Positions 2,040 to 13,129 of a stretch of 20,353 nt of DNA are shown here, in pieces. The position numbers and the translations under genes are program-made. The notes under the pieces were generated by a model that made no database searches, was not told the DNA's origin, and saw only the letters and a list, made by a program, of their open reading frames with translations. The first letter of the stretch is position 1. The number at the start of each line of letters is the position of its first letter. Source of the DNA: a bacterium (GTDB lineage: Bacteria; SZUA-182; DTGQ01); assembly GCA_040752695.1 (NCBI GenBank), contig JBFMGO010000109.1, positions 1-20,353 of the forward strand. Direction: 5' to 3'.

Positions 2040-2055
2040 TGGTATGTTTTTTGCA
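2040..2055 (+). promoter_or_regulatory. Sigma-54 (-24/-12) promoter of the C25 peptidase gene
   Basis: TGGTATGTTTTTTGCA has GG-N10-GC spacing and a TTGC -12 box. It follows a very AT-rich tract (about 1955-2040) and lies about 60 nt before ATG 2113. Confidence 0.7.
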
Positions 2056-2112
2056 TTATTTAAAAACCAAGATAGTCTTATTACCACATCAGCAACTGGA
2101 GAAAGTATTCTT

Positions 2113-5100
2113 ATGAAGAATATCAAGAGAATAATAGCCTATTCAGGATTGTCTCTTCTCATCTGGTTTTTTGTTCTTCTTAACGCCATCTTTTTTTCCG
2201 CACCAGCCAGGGCAGAAACAGGTAAGGTCGTTGATGCGGGGCCATGGGGATTGACCTTAGAGTATACCGCTTTAGATCTTCAAGTCAGGGAAAAAAAAGA
2301 AGGCGATACGGTGTACCAGGTCTTGACCGTGGCCGGTGCAGGAGCAACTCAGGATGCGGGAAAACCGCAGTTGCCAGCTCAAGGCTTCTTGATGGCTGTG
2401 CCTCCACAGGCTGAAGTAAAACTGGAAGTTCTGGAGCAGGAGGTGGAAGTTTTGGACGATACACTCATATATCCCGCTCCCAAAAGGATCATTGTGACCG
2501 AAGGTGCACAAACTTTCGTAAGGGAAGATTTTGTCCTTGATCCAAGCTGTTATGGTCGAGCCTGTGATGCCCGGAACCGGAACGTTCAAGCCAGTGAAGT
2601 TCAAGATCGCTGGATACCGCAGGAGGCTTTTAGTATCGATCTTGATGGCTGTCTCAGGTACCAGAGAGTAGCTCGTCTTTCCATCTACCCAGTTCAGTAT
2701 AACCCGGCTTTACGAAAAGCACGTTTTTACCGGAAGGCCAGACTCGGGATCCTTTTCGAGGAAGCCCCGCAAATTAGCATCCGGGAGCGTGACGCTTCTC
2801 CTGAGGATAAAGAAGGCTGGGAATCGATCCTTTGGAGATACAGAAAAGACTGTGAGCATATGCTGGAGCAGGCCCTGATTAACTACTCTTCGATCGAGGA
2901 TTACCCCCGGATCTTCATCCCTCAAGGCTTTTTCGATGCGCCAAAAATAAGGGAAGAAAAAGAAAGGGAAGGAAAAAGAAGAGAAAAATCATTCGCTTAT
3001 CGCCTGAAACCCCTGAAAGTTTCTCTTGAGCATGAAGGGATTTACCGCATTTTGGGATCAGATTTACAGACCGCTGGCTGGGACCTCCGTCTTTTGGTTC
3101 CCCAAAAATTAAAAATGTACCATCAGGGCAGGCAGATCCCGATCAGTATTTCCGGAGCGAAAGATGGGCTGCTTCAGCCGTCTGATCGGATAACTTTTTG
3201 GGGGGAAGCCATTGATTCTCGTTTTACCAGGACAAATATTTACTGGCTGTATCAGGAGGAGGAAGAAGGGGAAACTTTGCGAATCAGGGAGCAGGATGAA
3301 TCTTTTGTCCTTCCGGCAGCAGGGGGGGCGGATTATTTTATCGATCACCTGCACCTGGAGAAAAATCCGATCTACTGGCAGACCCTCCCCGGCCCGATCC
3401 AAAAAGACCGCTGGTTCTGGGAGAGATTGACTGCACCGGCAACGGTTGATATGTCCTTCTCCCTGTACCGGATTTCTGCTCTTTGGGATACCGCTGTCTT
3501 GAGGCTTTTCTTCCAGGGGAAAACCGATGTCCCTGCCACCAAACCGGATCATCATGTGATCATTTCCCTGAACGGGACGGTAATTGATGATTGTTCCTGG
3601 GATGGGCAGACGGAATATCTTCACCAGATGACCATATCCACTGCACTTTTGCGGGAGGGGAACAATGTGATTACCCTGAAAGCTCCCGACGATACCGGAG
3701 CCGCGGTCGACGCTTCTTATGTGAATTGGATCGAAGTGGATTATCCAAGATCGTTTATTGCTCAGGGTAATCAGTTGTTGTTTTCGGTTCAGGATGAAGG
3801 AAGGTATAAATTTAACATCGGAGGGTTCTCAAGAGGAGAAATCTTAGGTTTCAATATCACTGATCCTGAGAATATTCTGAAATTAAAGAACATTTCGGTT
3901 GAAACAGAAAGGGATTCCACTTTCAGGACTGCCTTTACCGTAGCGGTAAAGAGCGGTGAGCGGTACGCCGTTTTGAGTCCCGATGCCGAGAGGGTTCCAA
4001 TATCGATTGAACCGAGAGGTTCTTTTGTGCCTGACCAGGAGGAGAGTGCCCTGCGCTCGGCTGAGAATGGAGCGGATTACCTCATCATCACCCATCCTGA
4101 TCTTTTGAACAGCATCATCCCTTTGGCTGATTACCGGAAATCGCAAGGGCTGAGGGTAACGGTAGTGGATGTTCGGGATATCTACGATGAATTCTCCTTT
4201 GGAATCTTTGATCCAGAGGCCATTCGGGATTTTTTACGGTACTGTTTTCTGAACTGGACGCCTCCGGCACCGCTGTATGTACTTTTCGTGGGGGATGCGA
4301 ACATGGATTATCTGGATAACTATGAGACCAAAAGAATCAATCAGGTCCCCACGTCCATATACTATACGACCGATGTTGGCGAAACTCCCAACGATAACTG
4401 GTTTGTGTGTGTCAATGGAGAAGATATTCTGCCGGATATGTTTTTAGGGAGAATATCGGTCAGGACGGCGGCGGAAGTTCGGGCTGTGGTGGAAAAGATT
4501 ATTTCCTATGAGCGTCAGGAGAATCAGTCCTGGCATCAAAGAGCGCTTTTTGTTGCAGATAAAGCAGATCCCACTTTTAAAAGCATCGATGAGAGTCTTA
4601 TACAGGGGTTTTTACCTTCAAACTTCGAGGTGCAAAAAGTTTATGCAGCCGACTATGCCAAGGCTGAATCAGTGGCCGATCAAATAAAGGAAAAAATCTC
4701 CAATGGGTGCCTGATTACTATCTACTGCGGCCATGGTAATATCGATAAATGGGGATCGACCTATTTTAAATTGAGTGATATTCCACAGTTAGAGAATATC
4801 GACCGTCCGACCTTTGTCGTTCCCTTGACCTGCCTGAATGGTTTTTTCCCGCATCCCAAGCAAGACTGCTGCCTGGCCGAAGAGTTTTTGCGCGCCGAAA
4901 AAAAAGGTGCTCTTGCCTGCTGGGCTCCAGTCAACGTGAGCTATCCGCCGGATCAAAAATGGATGTCCGGGGAATTATTCGATCTTATCTTTAAGCAGGG
5001 AAACAATATCCTGGGTTCCTGCACTGCGGCTGCCCGGATAAATACCTATATCCAGCATAAAATTTCAGGTGAGGCCGCTCAAGACTATCTGCTTTTTGGT

Positions 5101-5706
5101 GACCCAGCCACCAGACTACAGGGAGAATATGGGCCGAAGATGAATGACCTGGTTACCTTGCGGCAGGGGAGTAATCTGCTTGGCTTGCCGGGGCGCGTTG
5201 CTTCCTCTGCCTGGAAGGCTGAAGACCTGTTGGAATATGCAGCCAGGCAGGGGATTTGGGTGCGGAAAATTTCGGGGTATGATCCTGACCTTGGGATATG
5301 GCAGACCGGAGTCTGGCAGAATGGATCTTTGAATGGAGACAATTTTGAGATTCTTCCCGGCAGGGGCTACCTTTTGTATGTTGACAAAAGTGATGATCAA
5401 TCACTCTCATTCCCCAGCACCGATTCTTACCCACGGTATACCTTACATGCAGGATGCAATCTGGTGAATTTTCCCGCTCCTCTTGGTGATTATACCTCAT
5501 ACGACCTGCTCAGGGAATTGGGCGAGGGGTATATGCTCGACCTTTTGAGGTATGAGGAGAGAAGCGGGAAATGGCAAAGAACGTATCCTTTTTTTGGCCA
5601 GCCCAGCGGTGAGGATTACCCAATAGAACAAAACAAGGGATATTTTATCTGGATGGCCAGAATCAGAAAATCCTGGAGGCCATACGTGTGGAACGGGAAC
5701 CCGTAG
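2113..5706 (+). CDS. C25 family (gingipain/PorU-like) cysteine peptidase with signal peptide, C25 propeptide and a duplicated C-terminal repeat domain
   Basis: Signal-like N-terminus MKNIKRII...APARA. Propeptide motifs GKPQLP and YPVQYNP. C25 core motifs ADYLIITH, DIYDEFSFG, YVLFVGDA and DMFLGRI. Catalytic His (YCGHG) and Cys (LTCLNGFF), and LFGDPA. Start moved from 2044 to 2113 because 2044 lies inside the sigma-54 motif and 2113 has GGAG upstream. Confidence 0.88.
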   Translation: MKNIKRIIAYSGLSLLIWFFVLLNAIFFSAPARAETGKVVDAGPWGLTLEYTALDLQVREKKEGDTVYQVLTVAGAGATQDAGKPQLPAQGFLMAVPPQAEVKLEVLEQEVEVLDDTLIYPAPKRIIVTEGAQTFVREDFVLDPSCYGRACDARNRNVQASEVQDRWIPQEAFSIDLDGCLRYQRVARLSIYPVQYNPALRKARFYRKARLGILFEEAPQISIRERDASPEDKEGWESILWRYRKDCEHMLEQALINYSSIEDYPRIFIPQGFFDAPKIREEKEREGKRREKSFAYRLKPLKVSLEHEGIYRILGSDLQTAGWDLRLLVPQKLKMYHQGRQIPISISGAKDGLLQPSDRITFWGEAIDSRFTRTNIYWLYQEEEEGETLRIREQDESFVLPAAGGADYFIDHLHLEKNPIYWQTLPGPIQKDRWFWERLTAPATVDMSFSLYRISALWDTAVLRLFFQGKTDVPATKPDHHVIISLNGTVIDDCSWDGQTEYLHQMTISTALLREGNNVITLKAPDDTGAAVDASYVNWIEVDYPRSFIAQGNQLLFSVQDEGRYKFNIGGFSRGEILGFNITDPENILKLKNISVETERDSTFRTAFTVAVKSGERYAVLSPDAERVPISIEPRGSFVPDQEESALRSAENGADYLIITHPDLLNSIIPLADYRKSQGLRVTVVDVRDIYDEFSFGIFDPEAIRDFLRYCFLNWTPPAPLYVLFVGDANMDYLDNYETKRINQVPTSIYYTTDVGETPNDNWFVCVNGEDILPDMFLGRISVRTAAEVRAVVEKIISYERQENQSWHQRALFVADKADPTFKSIDESLIQGFLPSNFEVQKVYAADYAKAESVADQIKEKISNGCLITIYCGHGNIDKWGSTYFKLSDIPQLENIDRPTFVVPLTCLNGFFPHPKQDCCLAEEFLRAEKKGALACWAPVNVSYPPDQKWMSGELFDLIFKQGNNILGSCTAAARINTYIQHKISGEAAQDYLLFGDPATRLQGEYGPKMNDLVTLRQGSNLLGLPGRVASSAWKAEDLLEYAARQGIWVRKISGYDPDLGIWQTGVWQNGSLNGDNFEILPGRGYLLYVDKSDDQSLSFPSTDSYPRYTLHAGCNLVNFPAPLGDYTSYDLLRELGEGYMLDLLRYEERSGKWQRTYPFFGQPSGEDYPIEQNKGYFIWMARIRKSWRPYVWNGNP

Positions 5707-5833
5707 AGTTCCTTCATTTTAACATGTCGATGATTCCTGAAATGGCACCTGACTCCTGACCCGCGCATGTATCATACACAAGTGTATATCTGTATATTTG
5801 CTGTCTTGCTCGTCAAAGCGGGAGCAGGGTAAT

Positions 5834-5870
5834 TATGAAATTTATTTCACACTGTATGAAACATATTTCA
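5834..5870. promoter_or_regulatory. Tandem palindromic sites, putative upstream activator sequences for a sigma-54 enhancer-binding protein
   Basis: TATGAAATTTATTTCA (5834-5849) and TATGAAACATATTTCA (5855-5870). Both fit TGAAA-N4-TTTCA, are 21 bp apart, and lie about 200 bp upstream of the -24 box at 6061. Confidence 0.55.
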
Positions 5871-6058
5871 TGTTAATTAATTTTCTATTTATTAGATAGT
5901 TCAATTTTAAGTTAATAATTAATTATTAACCATTAATAGAAGTTATACCATTCTCTTGGCCATAAGATATAACTATTAACATGAATCTCTTAAGATACAG
6001 ATTATTAGGGATACTTTAAAAAAGTTAAAGATCAGTTATATAGTATTATTCAGTTTAG

Positions 6059-6075
6059 TTGGTATGTTACTTGCT
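6059..6075 (+). promoter_or_regulatory. Sigma-54 (-24/-12) promoter of the RiPP precursor/operon
   Basis: TTGGTATGTTACTTGCT has GG-N10-GC spacing and shares TGGTATGTT..TTGC with the site at 2040. It is preceded by an AT-rich tract. Confidence 0.75.
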
Positions 6076-6156
6076 TAAATATAAAGCATAAGCTCACTAT
6101 TTTTTTCTTTTAACAACTAAAGGAACAGCAAGTATCCACAAAGGAGGATCAAACGA

Positions 6157-6315
6157 ATGAAGGAAGAAAAAGGACGTCTCAATAACTTGAATCAATCCCT
6201 GCCCGTATATGAACCGCCAACTATGATCACCTACTCAGAAGAGGAGTTGCTTGAAGAGATGGAGACAATGTCGGTTCAGGCTTGCACGAGTTTTACTTCA
6301 GCTATAAGCTGTTAA
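6157..6315 (+). CDS. Putative RiPP precursor peptide, 52 aa: MKEEKGRLNNLNQSLPVYEPPTMITYSEEELLEEMETMSVQACTSFTSAISC
   Basis: Translated by hand; shorter than any ORF in the track. Strong RBS AAGGAGG at 6141-6147. YEPPTM resembles the YxxPxL RRE-binding leader motif, followed by an acidic segment and a Cys/Ser/Thr-rich C-terminus. It is the first gene upstream of an RRE-rSAM/SPASM gene. Confidence 0.85.
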   Translation: MKEEKGRLNNLNQSLPVYEPPTMITYSEEELLEEMETMSVQACTSFTSAISC

Positions 6316-6519
6316 CGGATATTACAAATAGAAATCTCTGTGTATTACCGTTGTCAGCAGCCACTATGAGGGGCTTGAAGTACGCGAGCGTCTATCCCGA
6401 CAAAGAATTCTCCGTTCATAATCTCTCATTCCCCTTGGGAAAAGAAAGACAGAGGTATTTTGGGGTAGACTCTCAGTCTTGTGAGTCGCTCAATTGTTTT
6501 TTGTATGTAAGGCCCAAAA

Positions 6520-6598
6520 GCCATTTCGAGGAGCACAAGCGAAGGTAAATCTTGGAAGCTTCCCGCGATCCAAGATTCCTCGCTTTTCTCGGAATGAC
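6520..6598. repeat. Palindromic intergenic element (GTCATTCCGAG...AGATTCCTCGC...CTCGGAATGAC type)
   Basis: GCCATTTCGAG (6520-6530) pairs imperfectly with CTCGGAATGAC (6588-6598). AAGCGAAGGTAAATCTTGGA pairs with TCCAAGATTCCTCGCTT. Confidence 0.6.
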
Positions 6599-6759
6599 CA
6601 CCGGATTCCTTTGCTCATTAAGACATCATTCAGTCTGGTGTGGAAAGGCTGTCGGGGAAAATGCTTTTCATCCCGGCAGTTTTATTGCTCTTTTGGATTA
6701 CCACTGTTGTGGGGCTCTTAAGGAAAAATGTTTGAGCTAAAGATGAAGGTCAGTGATAA

Positions 6760-8229
6760 GTGACTAATTTTAAACCGAAAACTAGAGCTACATGCGTCGC
6801 AGCCGATGATCGGCATCGTTATATACTCTTGCATGCTGACAAACCTGTCTGGATGGTAATCAACGAAGTTGGACATAAAACATTCACTCTTTGTGACAGT
6901 CACAACAGTGTGGGACAGATTGCTCAACGGGTAAGTCAGACCTATGGTATGCCCCTTGATCTGGTACTTTCAGATGTCAAATTTTTTATCAGCCGGCTTG
7001 TACGTGAGGGCTTCATTCTTCCGCCCTGTCCACAGCAGTCATCACCAAAGCCTGTCGAGGGAGCGTTGCAGCCTTTTGAGGAAAACCGGCAACCTGTCGA
7101 GGAACCCCTGACAGTAAGAAAAGTGGAACTGAACATTACCGAAAACTGCAACTTACGATGCCGTCACTGCGCAGTTACCAGCGGGACAAAGAAGGAAGAC
7201 CGGCTCACTCTCGATCAGATCTTCAAAATCGTAGATGAAGCTCAGGTCTTAAAGGTGGAGTCTTTAACCATAAGCGGGGGTGAACCTCTCCTTCGGGAAG
7301 ACTCTTTTTCTATCCTTGCTTATGCTGCCCGGAGGATAACTACTACTTTGGCCACCAATGGGACTTTAATCGATGATAAGGCAGCCTCTGTTTTGTCTGA
7401 TCTGGATCTGAAAATACAGATCAGCCTCGATGGTCCCAATGAGGACATTCATGATTTCATGCGGGGTGAGAATGCCTTTCTGAAAACCATGCGGGCACTT
7501 GACCTCATGGGCAGGCTGGATGTTGGAAAAAAAGTTACCTTTTGTGCAGTAGTCAGCAAAAACAATCTCGGCCATATCCCTGCTCTGCTCAGGTTAGCTT
7601 CAGAAAAGGGAGTATCAGAAATAAGGTTTATTCCTTTACAGAATATGGGTATGGCCAGATCGCGTTGGCATGAACTCGCCCCATCCATGCAGGATTATGT
7701 TGAATTCTATAGCTATATGTACCAAAAAGCGTCAGCCGAGTTTCCGCACCTGCGCATAAGTCCGGGTTTTCAGGGATTTGTACTCCGTCATCCACCAGGT
7801 CAGGATTCCTGGTGCCAGATTGGGCGCATATTGACGATCGATGTTCGGGGCGATATTTACCCCTGCTCACTGTTCATGGAACCGGCATTCAGGCTCGGTA
7901 ACATCCGCAAGACAAGCCTGCAAAAGGCCATTGATTCACCAGCCATGAAAAGGATACGGGAAATATGCCTTTTGCGCAAAAGCTCAATCCCTGAATGCCA
8001 GCGGTGTCCATGGAGAAACTTCTGTCAGGGTGGGTGCCCCGGCAGCGTATATCAGGCAAAAGGCACTTTGCAGGCGGTTGATGATTTATGCCAGTTCAGG
8101 AAGCAATTTTATGCACAAGCCATTTTCACCCAGTCAGACAGAAAATCACGTCCACTGTCAAATACAGCAGGTGAAAGAGATGGAAGACACAAAGGAGATG
8201 GTGAAGACAGGGGAGATGTAGGTGGTTGA
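6760..8229 (+). CDS. Radical SAM/SPASM peptide maturase with N-terminal PqqD-like RRE
   Basis: CNLRCRHC (CxxxCxxC), SGGEPLL, TNGTL and ISLDG core motifs. SPASM cysteines CQIG...GDIYPC and CQRCPWRNFCQGGC...DLC. The N-terminal INEVG...LCD...DVKFFISRLVREGFI segment is PqqD-like. GTG start, directly after an in-frame TAA. Confidence 0.92.
   Translation: MTNFKPKTRATCVAADDRHRYILLHADKPVWMVINEVGHKTFTLCDSHNSVGQIAQRVSQTYGMPLDLVLSDVKFFISRLVREGFILPPCPQQSSPKPVEGALQPFEENRQPVEEPLTVRKVELNITENCNLRCRHCAVTSGTKKEDRLTLDQIFKIVDEAQVLKVESLTISGGEPLLREDSFSILAYAARRITTTLATNGTLIDDKAASVLSDLDLKIQISLDGPNEDIHDFMRGENAFLKTMRALDLMGRLDVGKKVTFCAVVSKNNLGHIPALLRLASEKGVSEIRFIPLQNMGMARSRWHELAPSMQDYVEFYSYMYQKASAEFPHLRISPGFQGFVLRHPPGQDSWCQIGRILTIDVRGDIYPCSLFMEPAFRLGNIRKTSLQKAIDSPAMKRIREICLLRKSSIPECQRCPWRNFCQGGCPGSVYQAKGTLQAVDDLCQFRKQFYAQAIFTQSDRKSRPLSNTAGERDGRHKGDGEDRGDVGG
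7051..7113 (+). repeat. Three imperfect 21-nt repeats (PVEGALQ/PFEENRQ/PVEEPLT) in the RRE-rSAM linker
   Basis: cctgtcgaggga at 7051, ccttttgaggaa at 7072 and cctgtcgaggaa at 7093. Confidence 0.6.
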
Positions 8230-9469
8230 TTTTGTTGATTTAAAATCCATAATGGCCAGCGCTGATGTTCACTGTACTTTTCAGTTTCTCGATTCTTCTT
8301 TTACTATCTGCACCAATCAGCTCGAATCTTTAGTCTACTTTCGTAAGATGTATGCTGACTTTTCTTCGCGAACCGACTTGGTACATGATGGACGGGGAGC
8401 CTACTATGTAATCAATGAGCCGGCGCTTTTGGCAAAGCCCTTTATCTATGCAGATGAAAGAATCTACTCCTGCCCGGCAATGGATATGCTGCCCGTATAT
8501 GCCTATTCGGTTATTACCAATTCCATCATCACCAGGATACAATCACATCTCATTTTCCATGCTGCGGCTGTGTCCTGGCAAGATCAGGGAATCGTTATCC
8601 TGGGTGACTCCTGTCAGGGTAAAAGCACCCTGACCCTGGAACTGATCAGGCGGGGATTTGCATTTCTGACCGATGATATGACCTGCCTTTGCCGGAAGGA
8701 TGGCCGGATCTACCCTTTCTCCAAAGCGCTTGGTTTGCGTCAGAGTGCGGTCGGTTTATTCAAAGGATTCAGCGAAAGCACGTTTGACCCTTCATGTGCA
8801 ATTCCCGGCAAGGGAAAACTATTCATGCACCTTACGGATATTCCTGAAGCTAAAGTCAGTAGCCCGTGTCTGCCACGATTCCTGATCTGTTTATCTCCAT
8901 GGCGGGGAGAAGAGTCTGGATATGAATCATCATATGCCCCTCCCTATGAAGCTCAAGGGAAATGGAGGAAAGACCGGGGCTCCCTTCAAGAGGATAAAAA
9001 AATTCTCTACCTGGGTGTAGACCGATGTGAAGATGGATTGATTGAGGGGCTTGGAGCTCTTCCTGGCGTGGAAAAGTGTGAAGTGCGAAAAGGGAGTCTA
9101 TTTCCTGTGATTGAGCTTTGTTGCAGGCGGGGAACGTTCCTGTTGCCGGAGATTGAAAATCTTTGCTCTCGGTATAAGGTCGCACTTATCCATATAGCGA
9201 AAAACGACAGGGGAAGTATCGATTATTTATGTGATCCGCACCTTGAGAGAATTCCAAAACCATTGGCACTGAGAAGGCTTCTTGGGGGCTTTCGAGGTGG
9301 ATGGACGGCATCGGTGCTCAAGGAGACCGATCGCGGTATTGCCCCTTTGGTATTCGAATTGGGTAAGATACTGCAAGGGATGGAATGCTATCGTATGGTT
9401 CCGGGGGAACTGGGGAAAATGGCTGATTTGCTCTGTGACCTGGCTGCCGGAAAAAGTGGCAGAGCATGA
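8222..9469 (+). CDS. HprK-related P-loop kinase (peptide Ser/Thr kinase-like)
   Basis: FHAAAV...ILGDSCQGKSTLT...FLTDD matches the HprK C-terminal domain pattern (His, Walker A, DD). It overlaps the rSAM stop codon by 8 nt. Confidence 0.8.
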   Translation: MVDFVDLKSIMASADVHCTFQFLDSSFTICTNQLESLVYFRKMYADFSSRTDLVHDGRGAYYVINEPALLAKPFIYADERIYSCPAMDMLPVYAYSVITNSIITRIQSHLIFHAAAVSWQDQGIVILGDSCQGKSTLTLELIRRGFAFLTDDMTCLCRKDGRIYPFSKALGLRQSAVGLFKGFSESTFDPSCAIPGKGKLFMHLTDIPEAKVSSPCLPRFLICLSPWRGEESGYESSYAPPYEAQGKWRKDRGSLQEDKKILYLGVDRCEDGLIEGLGALPGVEKCEVRKGSLFPVIELCCRRGTFLLPEIENLCSRYKVALIHIAKNDRGSIDYLCDPHLERIPKPLALRRLLGGFRGGWTASVLKETDRGIAPLVFELGKILQGMECYRMVPGELGKMADLLCDLAAGKSGRA

Positions 9470-9547
9470 GTACCACAGATCCGGCTGAGAGTATTTGGAA
9501 AGAATACTTAATAAGGATAATGATCATTATGGAAAAAGGATAAGGTT

Positions 9548-9850
9548 ATGAACGGGCAGAACGAAAAAGGTGACGAAATAAGCAAGAAAGCTCCCTGCCG
9601 GAAGGATTCTCTTATGCTCAGAGATCTTGATGAAGAGACCATCTTGTACGACCCTGATACCAGGCAAATTCACATCCTTAATAAGACTGCTTTTTTGGTC
9701 TGGCAACTCTGTGACGGCATGCATTCCATCGCAGATATGACGGCAGCCATTACCAGGACATGCTCTCTGACTCAAGGGGAAATAGACAGGATCGAGCATG
9801 ATGTCAGGTCCATAGTAAGTGATTTTGAAGCCCAGGGCATGGTGAAGTAA
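9548..9850 (+). CDS. Stand-alone PqqD family protein (RiPP recognition element)
   Basis: 100 aa; RDLDEETILYD...HILNKTAFLVWQLCDG..SIAD...DVRSIVSDFEAQGMV is the PqqD pattern. Confidence 0.88.
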   Translation: MNGQNEKGDEISKKAPCRKDSLMLRDLDEETILYDPDTRQIHILNKTAFLVWQLCDGMHSIADMTAAITRTCSLTQGEIDRIEHDVRSIVSDFEAQGMVK

Positions 9851-9983
9851 AAAATTCGGTTGAATGACGCGGCGTGAAGATCATAATGGGGGGGAGACTG
9901 CGCATATGGCAATTTTAAGATACGAGGAATACAGGATGCAAAGTAGAATGAATGAATTCAATCTGATAAAGGAGGAATAGGCA

Positions 9984-11588
9984 ATGAAAAGGCTTTCAGG
10001 AGAACCTTTGAGTTTGGTTCTTGGACTAACGACACTGGTCGTAGTGTTGACTGTATATATTCCACAGGCAATTTCCGGAACGATACTGGTACCCGGTGAT
10101 TATGCTACTATCCAGGATGCTGTGCATGCCGCTGTCAACGGTGATGAAATTGTGGTATCTCCGGGAATTTATTATGAGAATATTTCCATCCCTTCAAAAG
10201 ATATTACTATAAGAAGCACCAACCCGGACGATATCGATGTAGTACGAAATACCATAATCGATGGGAACAGAGCCCACAGTGTCGTTACTTTTACAGGAAA
10301 TAGTGCATGTCCCGCACTGAGGGGGTTTACCGTGAGAAATGGCCAAAGTATCTCCGGCGGTGGAATCGATTGTCATGCATTGGCATCACCGACAATTGCC
10401 GATTGCATTATTACGGGAAATGAATCTACCGGCGTTAACGGCATAGATGGCGGCGGCGGAATTTACTGCTACTATAAATGTAACCCGAATATCGAAAGAT
10501 GTATTATCAGCAATAATACGGCCAATAATAATGGCGGAGGCATTTATTGCACCGCTTCTTGTTCGCCGAAGATCATAAGATGCACTATCTCCGGAAATAC
10601 TGCTCTGGGCAACGTATATGGTGGTGGTGGAATCTATTGTGGATATTTTTGCACCTCATCAATCGTCAATTGTATTATTACGGAAAACTATACCTTGGCC
10701 TACGGTGGTGGAATCTATACCAAGACCGACTCTGCAGCCGCGAAGACTGAAATCGTCAATTGTACGGTTACCTTGAATTCAGCCGATGGAGGAGGAAAAA
10801 ATAACGGTGGCGGCCTCTTTTGCGCCTACAAGGGGACAACCGCCACCAATTGCATTTTCATTGATAACAGCAAGGGAGAAATCGGATACAGCGGTAACTA
10901 TACCGTTGCCCCCACAGTCACCTATTCTGCTGTCAAGGGAGGGTATTTTAGCGCTGACAACAGTAATATCGACCTTGTAGACCCCTTATTCATAGCCCCT
11001 GGTCCAGGGGGGGATTATCGCCTGAGGGCCGGCTCTCCCTGTATCGATAAAGGTACCAATGTTGATGCACCCAGGTACGATCTCAATGGCGAAATAAGAC
11101 CCCGGGATGGAGATGCTGATGGCCTGCCGGTCACTGACATGGGTGCGTATGAATACATCCCGTTCACCTTGATTGAGATGGATCAATTTTCAGCAGCAGC
11201 TTCGGGCGATCACATTACCATCACCTTTAGCACGCTGAGTGAAATCGACACCGCAGGCTTTTATATCTGGCGTACTCAGGCAGGCTGTGAAGAATATACC
11301 AGACTCAATCCTGTCATCATAGAGTCGATCGGCGGACCCGCTTTACATGCGGAGTACTCTTATGACGATGATACAGCCTCTCCCTCGGTTATGTATTATT
11401 ATCAACTGGAAGAGGTGGATAATAGAGGCTTGAGCACTTTCTTTGGTCCCATTAAGCCGGTCAGCCTCCAGGCAGATGCACCCCGTGTGGATTATCTGTG
11501 GGGATACGGGCAATTAAAAGACCTGCAATCCATGTTATGGGGCATTCAATATCCTGCTCATAACCTTTTTTCATATTATCTGTTTTGA
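9984..11588 (+). CDS. Secreted right-handed parallel beta-helix protein with choice-of-anchor Q-like segment and C-terminal Ig/FN3-like domain
   Basis: RBS AAGGAGG and signal peptide. VPGDYATIQDAV start motif, repeated GGGIYC...P.I..C.I..N units, DPLF...DYRLRAGSPCIDKG...DMGAYE, then FTLIEMDQFSA...FSTLSEIDTAGFYIWR...YYYQLEEVD. Confidence 0.85.
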   Translation: MKRLSGEPLSLVLGLTTLVVVLTVYIPQAISGTILVPGDYATIQDAVHAAVNGDEIVVSPGIYYENISIPSKDITIRSTNPDDIDVVRNTIIDGNRAHSVVTFTGNSACPALRGFTVRNGQSISGGGIDCHALASPTIADCIITGNESTGVNGIDGGGGIYCYYKCNPNIERCIISNNTANNNGGGIYCTASCSPKIIRCTISGNTALGNVYGGGGIYCGYFCTSSIVNCIITENYTLAYGGGIYTKTDSAAAKTEIVNCTVTLNSADGGGKNNGGGLFCAYKGTTATNCIFIDNSKGEIGYSGNYTVAPTVTYSAVKGGYFSADNSNIDLVDPLFIAPGPGGDYRLRAGSPCIDKGTNVDAPRYDLNGEIRPRDGDADGLPVTDMGAYEYIPFTLIEMDQFSAAASGDHITITFSTLSEIDTAGFYIWRTQAGCEEYTRLNPVIIESIGGPALHAEYSYDDDTASPSVMYYYQLEEVDNRGLSTFFGPIKPVSLQADAPRVDYLWGYGQLKDLQSMLWGIQYPAHNLFSYYLF

Positions 11589-11732
11589 TATACGATATCT
11601 GTCAACGGCCTTGTCCAGAATAGCCCTCTTCATGGAAAACGGATTGAAAAATTGTTCACACGATCATTCCGAAAGATAAGTCGACCGTATAATCAGTTCT
11701 ATTTATGTATGCAGCTTGACAGGCGACTGAAA

Positions 11733-11830
11733 TCCCCTTACCCCTTCCTATTCCTCCCCTTTGGGGAAAGTGGCCGGGTGAGCCCCCCTTAACCCTCTCT
11801 CCCCCCTTGGGGAGAGGGTGGGGTGAGGGT
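11733..11830. repeat. REP-like GC-rich palindromic repeats (two degenerate units)
   Basis: TTCCTCCCCTTTGGGGAAAGTGGCCGGGTGAG (11751-11782) and CTCTCTCCCCCCTTGGGGAGAGGGTGGGGTGAGGG (11795-11829), of the CCCTCTCCC..GGGAGAGGG..GGGTGAGGG hairpin type. Confidence 0.6.
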
Positions 11831-11949
11831 GTAGGATACTTTGATGGCCTGTTTGCCTGCCGGGTACTCTTTAGGGCAGACAAACAAGGGGATGCATTTT
11901 ACCTGTCAGGATGTAAGATCAGATTCAAAGAGCAGATTCGAAACCTGGT

Positions 11950-12519
11950 ATGAGTACAGAAAAGGTAATTCAGATCATGGAGGCCGGGCTCCTGTCGGCT
12001 AAAAAGGTGTGTCTTTCCATCAGTGGCTATAGCATGTATCCCCTGCTTCAGCCTGGGTCTAAGATCATGATATCCACTAATCTCTATCCTGACCGAATCC
12101 TCATCGGCGATATTGTGATTATTACCAGCCGAAACTATACCGGCATTGTGGCTCATCGAGTGATATGCATTCGCAGAAGGAAGGGAAAGCCGGTCCTGTT
12201 TATTACCAAGGGGGATGCGAACAGAAGCTTTGACAGAGCGATAGGCCCTGATCAGATATTGGGGAAAATCGTGACTATCTCAAAGGAGAATAAGTCCATA
12301 CATCTGTCCCGGTCCTACTGGCGAGCGGCAGGCGTTTTGATTGCCGTAAGTTCCGGTATCTGTGGCCTTGTGCATCAATGCATTGATACTTGTCTTTGCA
12401 TTGATCGCTGCAATTTTTCATGCGGTCTGGCAAGAACAAAAATCAGCCTGTGGGCTCACAGACTCACCAGCCATGCTCACCGCATTTTTTTACGGGCGAT
12501 TATCCTGCCCCTGCAATAG
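11950..12519 (+). CDS. S26/S24 family signal-peptidase-like protein (SipW/Sec11-type Ser-His), putative leader peptidase
   Basis: SGYSMYPLLQPG (catalytic Ser), GDIVI, VAHRVI (His) and FITKGDAN...D. No N-terminal membrane anchor precedes the Ser. Confidence 0.82.
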   Translation: MSTEKVIQIMEAGLLSAKKVCLSISGYSMYPLLQPGSKIMISTNLYPDRILIGDIVIITSRNYTGIVAHRVICIRRRKGKPVLFITKGDANRSFDRAIGPDQILGKIVTISKENKSIHLSRSYWRAAGVLIAVSSGICGLVHQCIDTCLCIDRCNFSCGLARTKISLWAHRLTSHAHRIFLRAIILPLQ

Positions 12520-12680
12520 TCCAAAAGCCTGAAATAGCGTCTATAGAGCCTGTAACACAGCGGTAAGAACTCACCTTCTGTTTTATACTCCAGTAATTTA
12601 CCTGATAGAGCCGATCTTTAAGGAGATGTCAACAAAGAGCCGGCATTCTCCTCATTGCTCGAAGAAATCATAAGAACAAG

Positions 12681-12699
12681 TATAACAATGTGTTATAAT
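12681..12699 (+). promoter_or_regulatory. Extended -10 promoter (TGnTATAAT) overlapped by an inverted repeat, upstream of rseC-rnfCD
   Basis: TGTTATAAT at 12691-12699. Perfect inverted repeat TATAACA-atg-TGTTATA at 12681-12697. Confidence 0.45.
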
Positions 12700-12721
12700 A
12701 TACAATACAAAGAGTTATCTT

Positions 12722-13129
12722 ATGAATGAAAATGGAGTAATCGTGGCCGTTTTTGGTTCTACGGCTCATGTTGAGATGGTTCGCAGTCCTGCATGCAGGA
12801 CATGCGGCCTGTGCACCTCATCGCTCGATGAAAAAAAAATGGTCGTCGAGGTTAAAACCGTACCCGGAGCCAAAGTGGGCGACCAGGTAGTGATAGAGAT
12901 TAAACCAGGCACGGTAATCAGCTCTGCAATCATACTGTATCTGATACCATTGGCGGGTTTGTTTTTTGGTGCAGTTTTGGGTGAGGCTTTTTTTCACCGG
13001 GAAGAAATGTCACTCCTGCTCGGCCTGGCTGGACTTGCCGGATCACTCGCCCTGGTTGTTGTGATTGACCGGAAGCTCAAGAAGAGCCAAAGATTTCAGC
13101 CGCGAATTGTGGAGGTCATGAAATCATGA
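12722..13129 (+). CDS. rseC: RseC/MucC family membrane protein
   Basis: MNENGVIV...RSPACRTCGLC...GAKVGDQVVIEI...AIILYLIPL with two hydrophobic helices. ATGA overlap with rnfC. Confidence 0.85.
   Translation: MNENGVIVAVFGSTAHVEMVRSPACRTCGLCTSSLDEKKMVVEVKTVPGAKVGDQVVIEIKPGTVISSAIILYLIPLAGLFFGAVLGEAFFHREEMSLLLGLAGLAGSLALVVVIDRKLKKSQRFQPRIVEVMKS

What the first reader, a model, noticed from the sequence alone, without database searches (positions are those of the whole stretch)
6059..12519. Unannotated RiPP cluster: hidden 52-aa precursor, RRE-rSAM/SPASM, HprK-like kinase, PqqD and S26 peptidase
Seen: a short ORF missed by the track, with a strong RBS, a YxxP leader and a Cys/Ser/Thr-rich tail, followed by a maturase set. 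No lasso cyclase or ABC transporter is in the window. Known: RREs bind YxxP-type leaders, SPASM rSAM enzymes install thioether or C-C crosslinks, and HprK-like kinases phosphorylate Ser in paeninodin-type lasso peptides. Inference: the product is a crosslinked (ranthi/sactipeptide-like) and phosphorylated peptide. I cannot assign this enzyme combination to a characterised class, although it loosely recalls uncharacterised cassettes such as SynChlorMet.
Basis: partly seen in the sequence, partly recalled or inferred. Interest (0 to 1): 0.88.

Follow-up and report, generated by a model that had tools for sequence, protein, structure and literature searches.

The report
Modified peptide coupled to sortase-like protease
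A small conserved gene and four neighbouring maturation genes likely make a short phosphorylated, sulfur-cross-linked peptide, and because these genes travel with a secreted sortase-like protease that is predicted to grip the tail domain of neighbouring secreted proteins, the peptide likely helps anchor those proteins instead of acting as a free antibiotic.

Summary
Observation confirmed. The 52-aa ORF (6157-6315) is a real gene: conserved in relatives, 11 synonymous against 2 non-synonymous codon changes, and part of a family with 262 representatives. Leader YxxP...[VIA]-Q-A; likely core CTSFTSAISC. The kinase, S26 peptidase and RREs mirror the LPP pathway (Popov 2026), but LPP membership fails on leader motif, NTP transferase and transporter. 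The added RRE-rSAM forms its own clade, seen with Cys1 cores in 19 of 19 loci.

Precursor genes abut FN3-module genes (62 of 120, background 8 of 280). Three related genomes hold one enzyme operon and 16 of 16 scattered same-type precursors beside such genes. A complex prediction puts the module's first strand in the C25 active site (0.82, best control 0.00; mark reached by 116 of 157 solved and 2 of 215 mismatched pairs).

Against an anchor role: no conserved exporter, and most C25+FN3 genomes lack the peptide. This scan noted the family before on other DNA. All chemistry is inferred.

The parts
2044..5706 (+). Secreted C25 peptidase (propeptide + PorU/gingipain-like catalytic domain, His897/Cys930; probable start Met24 at 2113); ends in a ~185-aa domain shared with 15 other ORFs of this genome
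   Evidence: PF01364 284.9 bits, PF08126 70.7; PorU model 240.6/420; nearest PDB sequence PorU 6za2, E 3e-15; dyad invariant in 23 aligned family members; tail family count
5834..5929 (+). AT-rich non-coding stretch conserved with a same-genus genome; candidate promoter or regulator site (inferred)
   Evidence: 72% over 97 nt to L016, E 2e-8; the sigma-70 scan of 5600-12800 is not clearly above chance, 18 against 13.0+/-4.0
6140..6147 (+). Shine-Dalgarno AAAGGAGG of the precursor
   Evidence: sequence
6157..6315 (+). Precursor peptide, 52 aa: leader residues 1-42 with YxxPxM RRE-binding motif at 6208-6225
6283..6312 (+). Predicted core CTSFTSAISC after the V-Q-A site (unmodified monoisotopic mass 1018.41; -2H +1 phosphate 1096.36)
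   Evidence: family register: small residue at -1, Ala/Val/Leu at -3; hydroxyl residue at +2/+3 in 40 of 45 distinct pattern-found cores; masses. The cut site is inferred
6760..8229 (+). RRE-fused radical SAM/SPASM enzyme; CxxxCxxC at 130-137; seven invariant SPASM cysteines (352, 369, 413, 416, 422, 426, 444)
   Evidence: own clade of 21 rows, SH-aLRT 97 (quick tree); top fold match CteB 5wgg
8222..9469 (+). HprK-like kinase (His113, Walker A GDSCQGKS, Asp151-Asp152); start overlaps the rSAM stop
9548..9850 (+). Stand-alone RRE (PqqD family)
   Evidence: PF05402 41.3 bits
9984..11588 (+). Secreted right-handed beta-helix protein ending in an FN3-like module and a W/Y-rich tail; predicted C25 substrate
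11157..11459 (+). FN3-like module (residues ~392-492), no Pfam or NCBIfam match; its N-terminal segment IPFT-LIE (392-398) is predicted to lie in the C25 active site
   Evidence: no family; family model pLDDT 90.6, FN3 fold Z 10.7, rmsd 2.0, 82 aligned; complex
11950..12519 (+). S26/SpI-like leader peptidase (Ser28, His69, Asp89); last gene of the conserved order
   Evidence: TIGR02228 above cut-off; residues match the spacing of LppS S29/H68/D93; synteny ends here in L016 and L017

Best explanation
The operon likely turns the 52-residue precursor into a 10-residue, phosphorylated, cysteine-cross-linked peptide that would serve the neighbouring C25 protease, most likely as the amine-bearing acceptor onto which the protease is predicted to transfer secreted proteins after cutting off their FN3-like tail. 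Steps. (1) RREs bind YxxP: inferred from LPP and lasso structures. (2) The kinase phosphorylates Thr2 or Ser3: inferred from LppK and PsmK and from the conserved hydroxyl position; about 0.75. (3) The rSAM links Cys1 sulfur to a nearby carbon through an open site on its first auxiliary cluster: inferred; about 0.5. (4) S26 cuts after Val-Gln-Ala, freeing the Cys1 amine: inferred from LppS; about 0.7. (5) C25 cuts cargo at the P-T/[LA][IV] start of the FN3 module: predicted by a complex model; about 0.65. (6) The acyl-enzyme is resolved by the peptide amine, and the phosphate carries a sugar or lipid added by an NTP-transferase acting in cis or in trans: by analogy only; about 0.3. Shown directly: the genes, their catalytic motifs, their conservation and their co-occurrence.
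For: Gene order C25-precursor-rSAM-kinase-RRE-FN3 protein-S26 is kept in two same-genus genomes. C25 lies in 14 of 17 loci holding the kinase and a clade rSAM (one search gave 14 of 19; L023 and L024 removed as outside the clade). 14 of 16 precursor-bearing genomes have C25 (159 of 401 overall) and 14 of 16 have the FN3 module (81 of 401 overall). Precursor genes abut same-strand FN3-module genes in 62 of 120 distinct cases with a visible neighbour, against 8 of 280 genes three or more positions away; 29 of 67 after clustering at 80%. Three genomes of one family each have one kinase and one clade rSAM in a C25 operon without a precursor, and all 16 of their precursors, core CTGFGGS(V/A/S)..C, lie beside FN3-module genes elsewhere. 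C25 (318-1030) with the FN3 module and tail scores 0.82, best of 3 controls 0.00; that mark was reached by 116 of 157 solved complexes and 2 of 215 mismatched pairs, only roughly valid with my alignments; runs agree in at least 76% of contacts, partner pLDDT at least 67; residues 392-398 touch His897 and Cys930. PorU cuts X/(GSA)(VLI) and transfers cargo to amines, including peptides (PMC4560394, passages). PsmN-type NTP transferases put hexose on the phosphoserine of a lasso peptide (PMC6993621, passages). 19 of 19 loci with a clade rSAM and a parsed precursor hold a Cys1 core.
Against: No exporter is conserved: no transporter family recurred in more than 2 loci among the unlabelled neighbours that I identified, so how a cytoplasmic peptide meets a secreted protease is unexplained. 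The peptide is not obligatory: 67 of 81 FN3-module genomes and 145 of 159 C25 genomes have no detected precursor, and 5 of 5 such genomes tested lack a family kinase (best E 2e-6). The PorU-type Arg 32 residues after the catalytic Cys is not kept. Predicted interface residues are no more conserved than background (0.49 against 0.54; 0.50 against 0.51). The core start C-T/S does not mimic the cargo P1'-P2' ([LA][IV]) as PorU acceptors do. No NTP transferase is in the window (8 of 26 kinase loci of 8 kb or more have one). Cores vary widely. G014 and G018 have precursors but no C25 or FN3 hit at the thresholds used. Nine Cys1 loci show no clade rSAM (some short contigs; some have a different rSAM). 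The loci include kin, and the FN3 profile was built from these loci. Peptide-C25 and peptide-FN3 binding were not tested.
Confidence: 0.4

Rival explanations
1. The modified peptide belongs to the C25/FN3 system but non-covalently: it would be an activator, inhibitor, metal-binding cofactor or signal made in step with cargo, not the acceptor.
For: The same linkage data. Most C25+FN3 genomes lack the pathway, as expected of an accessory. Cores vary and do not mimic the cut site.
Against: A regulator would not obviously need one gene copy beside each of many cargo genes with a near-identical core (16 of 16). A free N-terminal amine and a phosphate handle are what an acceptor needs.
Confidence: 0.27
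2. It is an ordinary LPP-like RiPP released as a free phosphorylated thioether peptide (antimicrobial, signal or biofilm factor); the protease and secreted proteins only share cell-surface islands.
For: The enzyme set mirrors LPP, which itself lies in capsule loci. A C25-free, LPP-like set (kinase, RRE, S26, NTP transferase) occurs in L023, L025, L091, L108 and L228. C25 is common, 159 of 401 genomes.
Against: No exporter or immunity gene in the window. C25 is often directly abutting or overlapping the kinase gene. Orphan precursors sit beside FN3 cargo, not beside the enzymes.
Confidence: 0.2
3. The pathway is as described, but the rSAM would oxidise Cys1 to formylglycine (anSME-like) or do other non-thioether chemistry. 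This rival concerns step 3 only and is compatible with the others.
For: Only Cys1 is invariant; a second Cys is absent in some rSAM-linked cores (CSPTPAGIQN, CSPFPP, CSPSPEA). The best PDB sequence hit is anSME, E 6e-23. The best NCBIfam score is mycofactocin MftC, 164.9/265. C-S-P-S-P cores resemble the sulfatase CxPxR motif (recalled).
Against: The extra anSME cysteine after the first SPASM Cys is absent, and no eighth Cys is invariant in 19 sequences, which fits the CteB-like open site (PMC6231123, passages). The top fold match is CteB, though this is helped by the shared RRE.
Confidence: 0.2
4. The small ORF is a chance frame and the enzymes act on something else.
For: No Pfam or NCBIfam match.
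Against: Synonymous bias, strong RBS, 262 family representatives, and a fixed position beside the enzymes.
Confidence: 0.02

Closest known systems
LPP (linear polyphosphorylated peptide) pathway of Bacillota, LppA/B/K/S/D/N (Popov et al. 2026, PMC13381572; abstract, introduction, four results sections and discussion read, supplements searched for five terms)
   Same: Discrete RRE, YxxP leader, HprK-like kinase, SpI/S26 leader peptidase with Ser-His-Asp at the same spacing, hydroxyl residue at core position 2-3.
   Different: Leader about 7 residues longer from Tyr to the cut, without HQxIxFET; adds an RRE-rSAM/SPASM and Cys1 cores; no MsbA-like transporter; NTP transferase not in this locus; linked to C25 and FN3 cargo, not to capsule genes; outside Bacillota. 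The paper's main text has no 'radical SAM', 'SPASM', 'C25' or 'sortase'; Radical_SAM and Peptidase_C25 appear only as columns in its 834-column domain matrix (counts not read).
PorU, the C25 sortase of the type IX secretion system (PMC4560394, passages; PMC7468200, abstract and section titles)
   Same: C25 catalytic domain with His-Cys dyad; cargo with a C-terminal beta-sandwich module; predicted cut after Thr before a small or aliphatic pair.
   Different: PorU model 240.6/420; PorU Arg not kept; no T9SS CTD or SprA found in this genome; the module is FN3-like and is followed by lineage-specific tails; PorU's acceptor is a Ser/Gly-bearing sugar of A-LPS, not a ribosomal peptide.
Ranthi-/sactipeptide synthases (CteB, StsB, PapB)
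   Same: RRE-rSAM-SPASM with seven SPASM cysteines; Cys-containing core; CteB is the top fold match (TM 0.63).
   Different: All models far below cut-off (StsB 142.5/625, PapB 97.1/340); about 19% identity to CteB; a single invariant Cys at the core N-terminus; kinase and S26 partners.
Paeninodin/pseudomycoidin phosphorylated lasso peptides (PMC6993621, passages)
   Same: HprK-like kinase with the DD motif, RRE, and in some relatives the NTP_transf_5 enzyme.
   Different: No macrolactam synthetase or B2 protease; the target hydroxyl would be near the core N-terminus, not the C-terminal Ser.
SynChlorMet and HPr-rel-A/B cassettes (NCBIfam models only)
   Same: PqqD-like, HprK-like and SPASM components.
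   Different: All scores below cut-off; one rSAM, not two; a precursor is identified here.

Membership tests
LPP | Discrete RRE plus SpI-like peptidase plus HprK-like kinase | tested here: met
LPP | Leader consensus YxxPxVLxHQxIxFETxxS | tested here: not met
   Only YxxP is shared; family consensus is YEPPxxxTYxxEEILEExGPAQA
LPP | NTP transferase in the cluster | tested here: not met
   Absent from the window; a 33% homologue lies on contig C176; present in 8 of 26 kinase loci
LPP | MsbA-like transporter in the cluster | tested here: not met
   None among the 14 window ORFs; none recurrent among neighbours
LPP | Polyphosphorylation of core Ser3 on a linear peptide | not testable with these tools
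   Window core has Thr2 and Ser3; relatives have Ser2
Ranthi-/sactipeptide | RRE-rSAM/SPASM with a three-Cys first auxiliary cluster and a Cys-bearing core | tested here: met
   (by sequence; cluster ligation not observed)
Ranthi-/sactipeptide | Score above a curated thioether-synthase model | tested here: not met
   StsB 142.5/625, PapB 97.1/340; none of the best 25 of 95 families shown reaches its cut-off
Ranthi-/sactipeptide | C-S thioether in the product | not testable with these tools
   needs MS/NMR
Lasso peptide (paeninodin type) | Macrolactam synthetase and B2 protease | tested here: not met
   no match among the 14 window ORFs
SynChlorMet | ScmC, ScmD, ScmE and ScmF above cut-off; two rSAMs | tested here: not met
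   37.5/100, 117.6/400, 92.3/400; ScmC not among the kinase hits
PorU/T9SS attachment | C25 domain with His-Cys dyad | tested here: met
   His897, Cys930
PorU/T9SS attachment | PorU model cut-off and conserved Arg | tested here: not met
   240.6/420; Asn at the aligned position
PorU/T9SS attachment | T9SS CTD cargo and SprA translocon in the genome | tested here: not met
   not found in G000 (96.6% complete); found in 1 of 5 precursor genomes tested
PorU/T9SS attachment | FN3 module has the T9SS CTD fold | tested here: inconclusive
   top matches are FN3 domains
PorU/T9SS attachment | Transpeptidation onto an amine acceptor | not testable with these tools
   the complex model supports substrate docking only

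The most novel reading that the evidence does not exclude
A ribosomal peptide, cross-linked, phosphorylated and trimmed by an LPP-like pathway, is the acceptor of a T9SS-independent C25 sortase: secreted proteins lose their FN3 tail and are ligated to the peptide, which tethers them to the cell surface through its phosphate. This would be a RiPP used as a protein-anchoring tag, with precursor genes copied beside cargo genes to match supply.
Probability: 0.3. Interest if true: 0.92.

Novelty: new variant of a known kind. Interest (0 to 1): 0.72.

Why it matters
If the link to C25 holds, it gives a biological role to a widespread, uncharacterised RRE/kinase/S26 peptide family; the role of LPPs and paeninodins is stated as unknown in PMC13381572. 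It would also name substrate, cut site and a candidate acceptor for C25 proteases in bacteria without type IX secretion. Even on the conservative reading it supplies a new rSAM clade with a defined 10-residue substrate, a testable S26 cut site and a kinase family that seems to switch between Ser/Thr (Cys1 cores) and Tyr (other cores). A C25 that cuts at an FN3 tag and accepts peptides would be a protein-ligation tool.

Tried and rejected
Literature, 10 searches of the held library: 'SynChlorMet' gave 0 papers. No listed paper combines C25 or gingipain with rSAM/PqqD/RiPP terms in this sense. RRE-Finder (PMC7470986), the structure-based RRE paper (PMC12710340) and the rSAM compendium (PMC10288494) have no 'HPr' or 'kinase' in their main text (term searches only, supplements not searched). 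Subscription papers and bioRxiv supplements were not searchable. No RNA holder was listed for 5900-8300; this is no evidence on expression. Promoter, terminator and repeat scans were near chance. No second copy of this precursor in the own genome. The overlapping 88-aa TTG frame 6282-6548 was left out of the system; I did not test it separately. The stand-alone RRE is not specifically close to any solved RRE (TfuB1 E 0.18, 9x8z chain B E 0.51), and the precursor profile has no meaningful PDB or Pfam hit. No T9SS CTD was listed among the top 50 fold matches of the FN3 module. The Atlas look-alikes of the module (0.84-0.85, under 0.9, leads only) are domains preceding T9SS CTDs. I first read the module as a retained pre-signal domain; the complex model favours a cut at its start, so this stays open. 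My expectation that conserved motifs form the C25 interface was not borne out. The careful rSAM tree did not finish; the quick tree was used. The kinase tree has long-branch warnings and was not used for claims. The +1/+2 counts are partly circular, because the query carried C and S/T there; one search is the neutral count. Catalytic-site profiling for sacti versus ranthi could not be scored, because the reference residues are in figures.
Full report
Observation. The window is contig C109 of a 6.05-Mb genome, 96.6% complete. On the + strand lie a subtilase fragment, a C25 peptidase (2044-5706), the 52-aa ORF (6157-6315), an RRE-rSAM/SPASM (6760-8229), an HprK-like kinase (8222-9469), a stand-alone RRE (9548-9850), a secreted beta-helix protein (9984-11588) and an S26 peptidase (11950-12519), then unrelated rseC/rnf genes. 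Catalytic motifs are intact: rSAM CxxxCxxC and seven SPASM cysteines; kinase His113, Walker A and Asp151-Asp152; S26 Ser28/His69/Asp89.

The small ORF is a gene. It has a strong RBS. Homologues occur in 3 of the 12 other genomes of the order, beside the kinase or rSAM. Two same-genus genomes keep the order C25-precursor-rSAM-kinase-RRE-beta-helix-S26, with synteny ending after S26. Codon differences are mostly synonymous: 11 against 2 and 7 against 6 over 26 codons. A profile finds 262 representatives at E<=0.001; 145 of the 150 listed are short proteins, nearly all with the leader YxxPx[IV]xTYxxEEILEExGPAQA and variable tails. No Pfam family fits: each of the 4 weak matches is to 1 of 76 members.

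Cut site and core (inferred). In 141 parsed hits the leader ends at a near-fixed distance from the Tyr (23 residues in 131), with Ala at -3 in 120 and Ala/Thr/Gly at -1 in 139. This is a signal-peptidase-type site (established knowledge) and matches how LppS uses its last three leader residues. In the window it is V-Q-A, giving CTSFTSAISC. Of these, 21 begin with Cys (17 with Ser/Thr at +2 or +3) and 24 do not (23 with Ser/Thr/Tyr at +2 or +3, 14 with Tyr at +2). A hydroxyl near the core start is thus the family constant and the likely kinase target, as Ser3 is in LPP.

The rSAM. It forms a clade of 21 rows with SH-aLRT 97 in a quick tree. Of loci with a parsed precursor and a kinase or rSAM, 19 have a Cys1 core with this rSAM, 9 a Cys1 core without it, 7 a non-Cys core without it, and 1 a non-Cys core with an rSAM that scored over my threshold but falls outside the clade (P 0.012 as run, kin not independent; one unparsed precursor locus dropped; L093 also has a second, non-Cys1 precursor). 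A second Cys is common but variably spaced and sometimes absent, so Cys1 is the likely substrate. The seven-Cys pattern without anSME's extra ligand fits the open first auxiliary site seen in CteB (PMC6231123), and CteB is the top fold match. However, anSME is the best PDB sequence match and MftC the best family score, so thioether formation is about even odds.

The beta-helix protein ends in a ~100-residue module with no Pfam or NCBIfam match. A family model (pLDDT 90.6) has an FN3 fold. It lies within 60 residues of the C-terminus in 85 of 94 proteins, 70 of 97 carriers have an N-terminal hydrophobic stretch against 1605 of 4370 ORFs in G000, and it is followed by lineage-specific tails. Precursor genes abut such genes in 62 of 120 cases against 8 of 280 background genes (29 of 67 clusters at 80% identity). 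In three genomes of one unrelated family a single RRE-rSAM-kinase-C25-S26 operon has no precursor in the region fetched, while all 16 precursors, with a core type like the window's, lie beside FN3-module genes elsewhere. Across one sample of 401 genomes, 16 carry the precursor, and 14 of these carry both C25 (159 of 401) and the module (81 of 401); the module profile is partly circular for those genomes, the Pfam C25 model is not. C25 lies in 14 of 17 loci with kinase and clade rSAM.

Complex prediction. Window C25 residues 318-1030 with the window module and tail scored 0.82 against a best control of 0.00. The mark was reached by 116 of 157 solved and 2 of 215 mismatched pairs; these counts hold only roughly for my alignments. 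Runs agreed in at least 76% of contacts, partner pLDDT at least 67. The segment I392-E398, which holds the family's P-T-[LA]-[IV] motif (Thr in 32 of 45), touches His897 and Cys930. This recalls PorU, which cuts X/(GSA)(VLI) and transfers cargo to amines (PMC4560394). The model supports substrate docking and does not show it; likeness to solved C25 structures may help the score, and the interface is not more conserved than background. The peptide itself was not modelled.

How it most likely works. RRE-bound precursor is phosphorylated, Cys1 is modified by the rSAM, and S26 frees the core. C25, outside the membrane, cuts FN3-tagged cargo. The simplest reason to place precursor copies beside cargo genes and the enzymes beside C25 is that the peptide is consumed with cargo, as the acceptor amine, its phosphate carrying a sugar or lipid as in pseudomycoidin. 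This last step is analogy. It is weakened by the lack of a conserved exporter, the missing PorU Arg, the absence of the NTP transferase from this locus (a homologue is on contig C176), and the many C25+FN3 genomes without the pathway (67 of 81; 5 of 5 tested lack the kinase). I put the full model at 0.4, a non-covalent role in the same system at 0.27, and a free natural product at 0.2.

Comparison with what is known. It works like LPP in peptide processing but is not a member (leader, transporter and NTP transferase tests not met). It works like PorU in the predicted cargo cut but is not T9SS. It is not a lasso or SynChlorMet cluster. Ten searches of the held library found no paper describing the combination. 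Earlier AI notes of this scan describe the same family on other genomes and an FN3/C25 sorting system. Verdict: a real, undescribed variant of RRE/kinase/S26 RiPP pathways with a well-supported genomic tie to a C25 sorting system; mechanism unproven; interest 0.72.

Noticed in passing
G000:C60:24897-33765: A second, distinct cassette in the same genome: NTP transferase, RRE, rSAM, a short ORF at 27760-27924 with RBS, YEPP and a tail ending ALACCKSNTC..., a 1209-aa secreted protein, an HprK-like kinase and an S26-like gene, next to nucleotide-sugar genes. The two pathways could cross-recognise YxxP leaders, the problem studied in the LPP paper.
   Followed up: partly
G000:C176:144-1397: Orphan NTP_transf_5-like gene, 33% identical to the NTP transferase of the related cluster L018; a candidate trans-acting partner.
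   Followed up: partly
window:5134-5703: The C25 ends in a ~185-aa domain without Pfam or NCBIfam match that also occurs in 15 other, mostly large, ORFs of this genome, usually at the C-terminus; a second candidate sorting module.
   Followed up: partly
L083-L204 (pattern-found precursors): Non-Cys cores mostly carry Tyr at +2 (LYG, VYG, GYV, IYG), suggesting an HprK-like kinase subgroup that would act on tyrosine.
   Followed up: partly
L048-L056 (Thiotrichaceae: Thiomargarita, Parabeggiatoa): Giant sulfur bacteria carry the kinase, RRE and often C25 with very short cores (CSPN, CSLQGGFD) and, in two loci, a different rSAM outside the window clade.
   Followed up: partly
L093, L109, L177, L199, L200: A second precursor with a WxxP leader lies next to the YxxP precursor in at least L093 and L109, echoing the Trp/Tyr RRE discrimination described for LPP and paeninodin.
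   Followed up: no
window:12722-15500: rseC-rnfC-rnfD with no further rnf genes after rnfD in this window; a 510-nt gap follows.
   Followed up: no
window:16011-20352: A glucan-water-dikinase-like gene (PPDK_N plus GWD phosphohistidine domain) followed by a dual-specificity phosphatase, resembling the glucan phosphorylation and dephosphorylation pair of starch metabolism (recalled), here in a bacterium.
   Followed up: no
window:2-1735: C-terminal part of a secreted subtilase with choice-of-anchor X and D domains, kept upstream of C25 in both same-genus genomes.
   Followed up: no
G000:C15:37407-40656 and C18:31600-34969: Two paralogous pairs of adjacent rSAM genes, one fused to a long N-terminal region; unrelated to this clade.
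   Followed up: no
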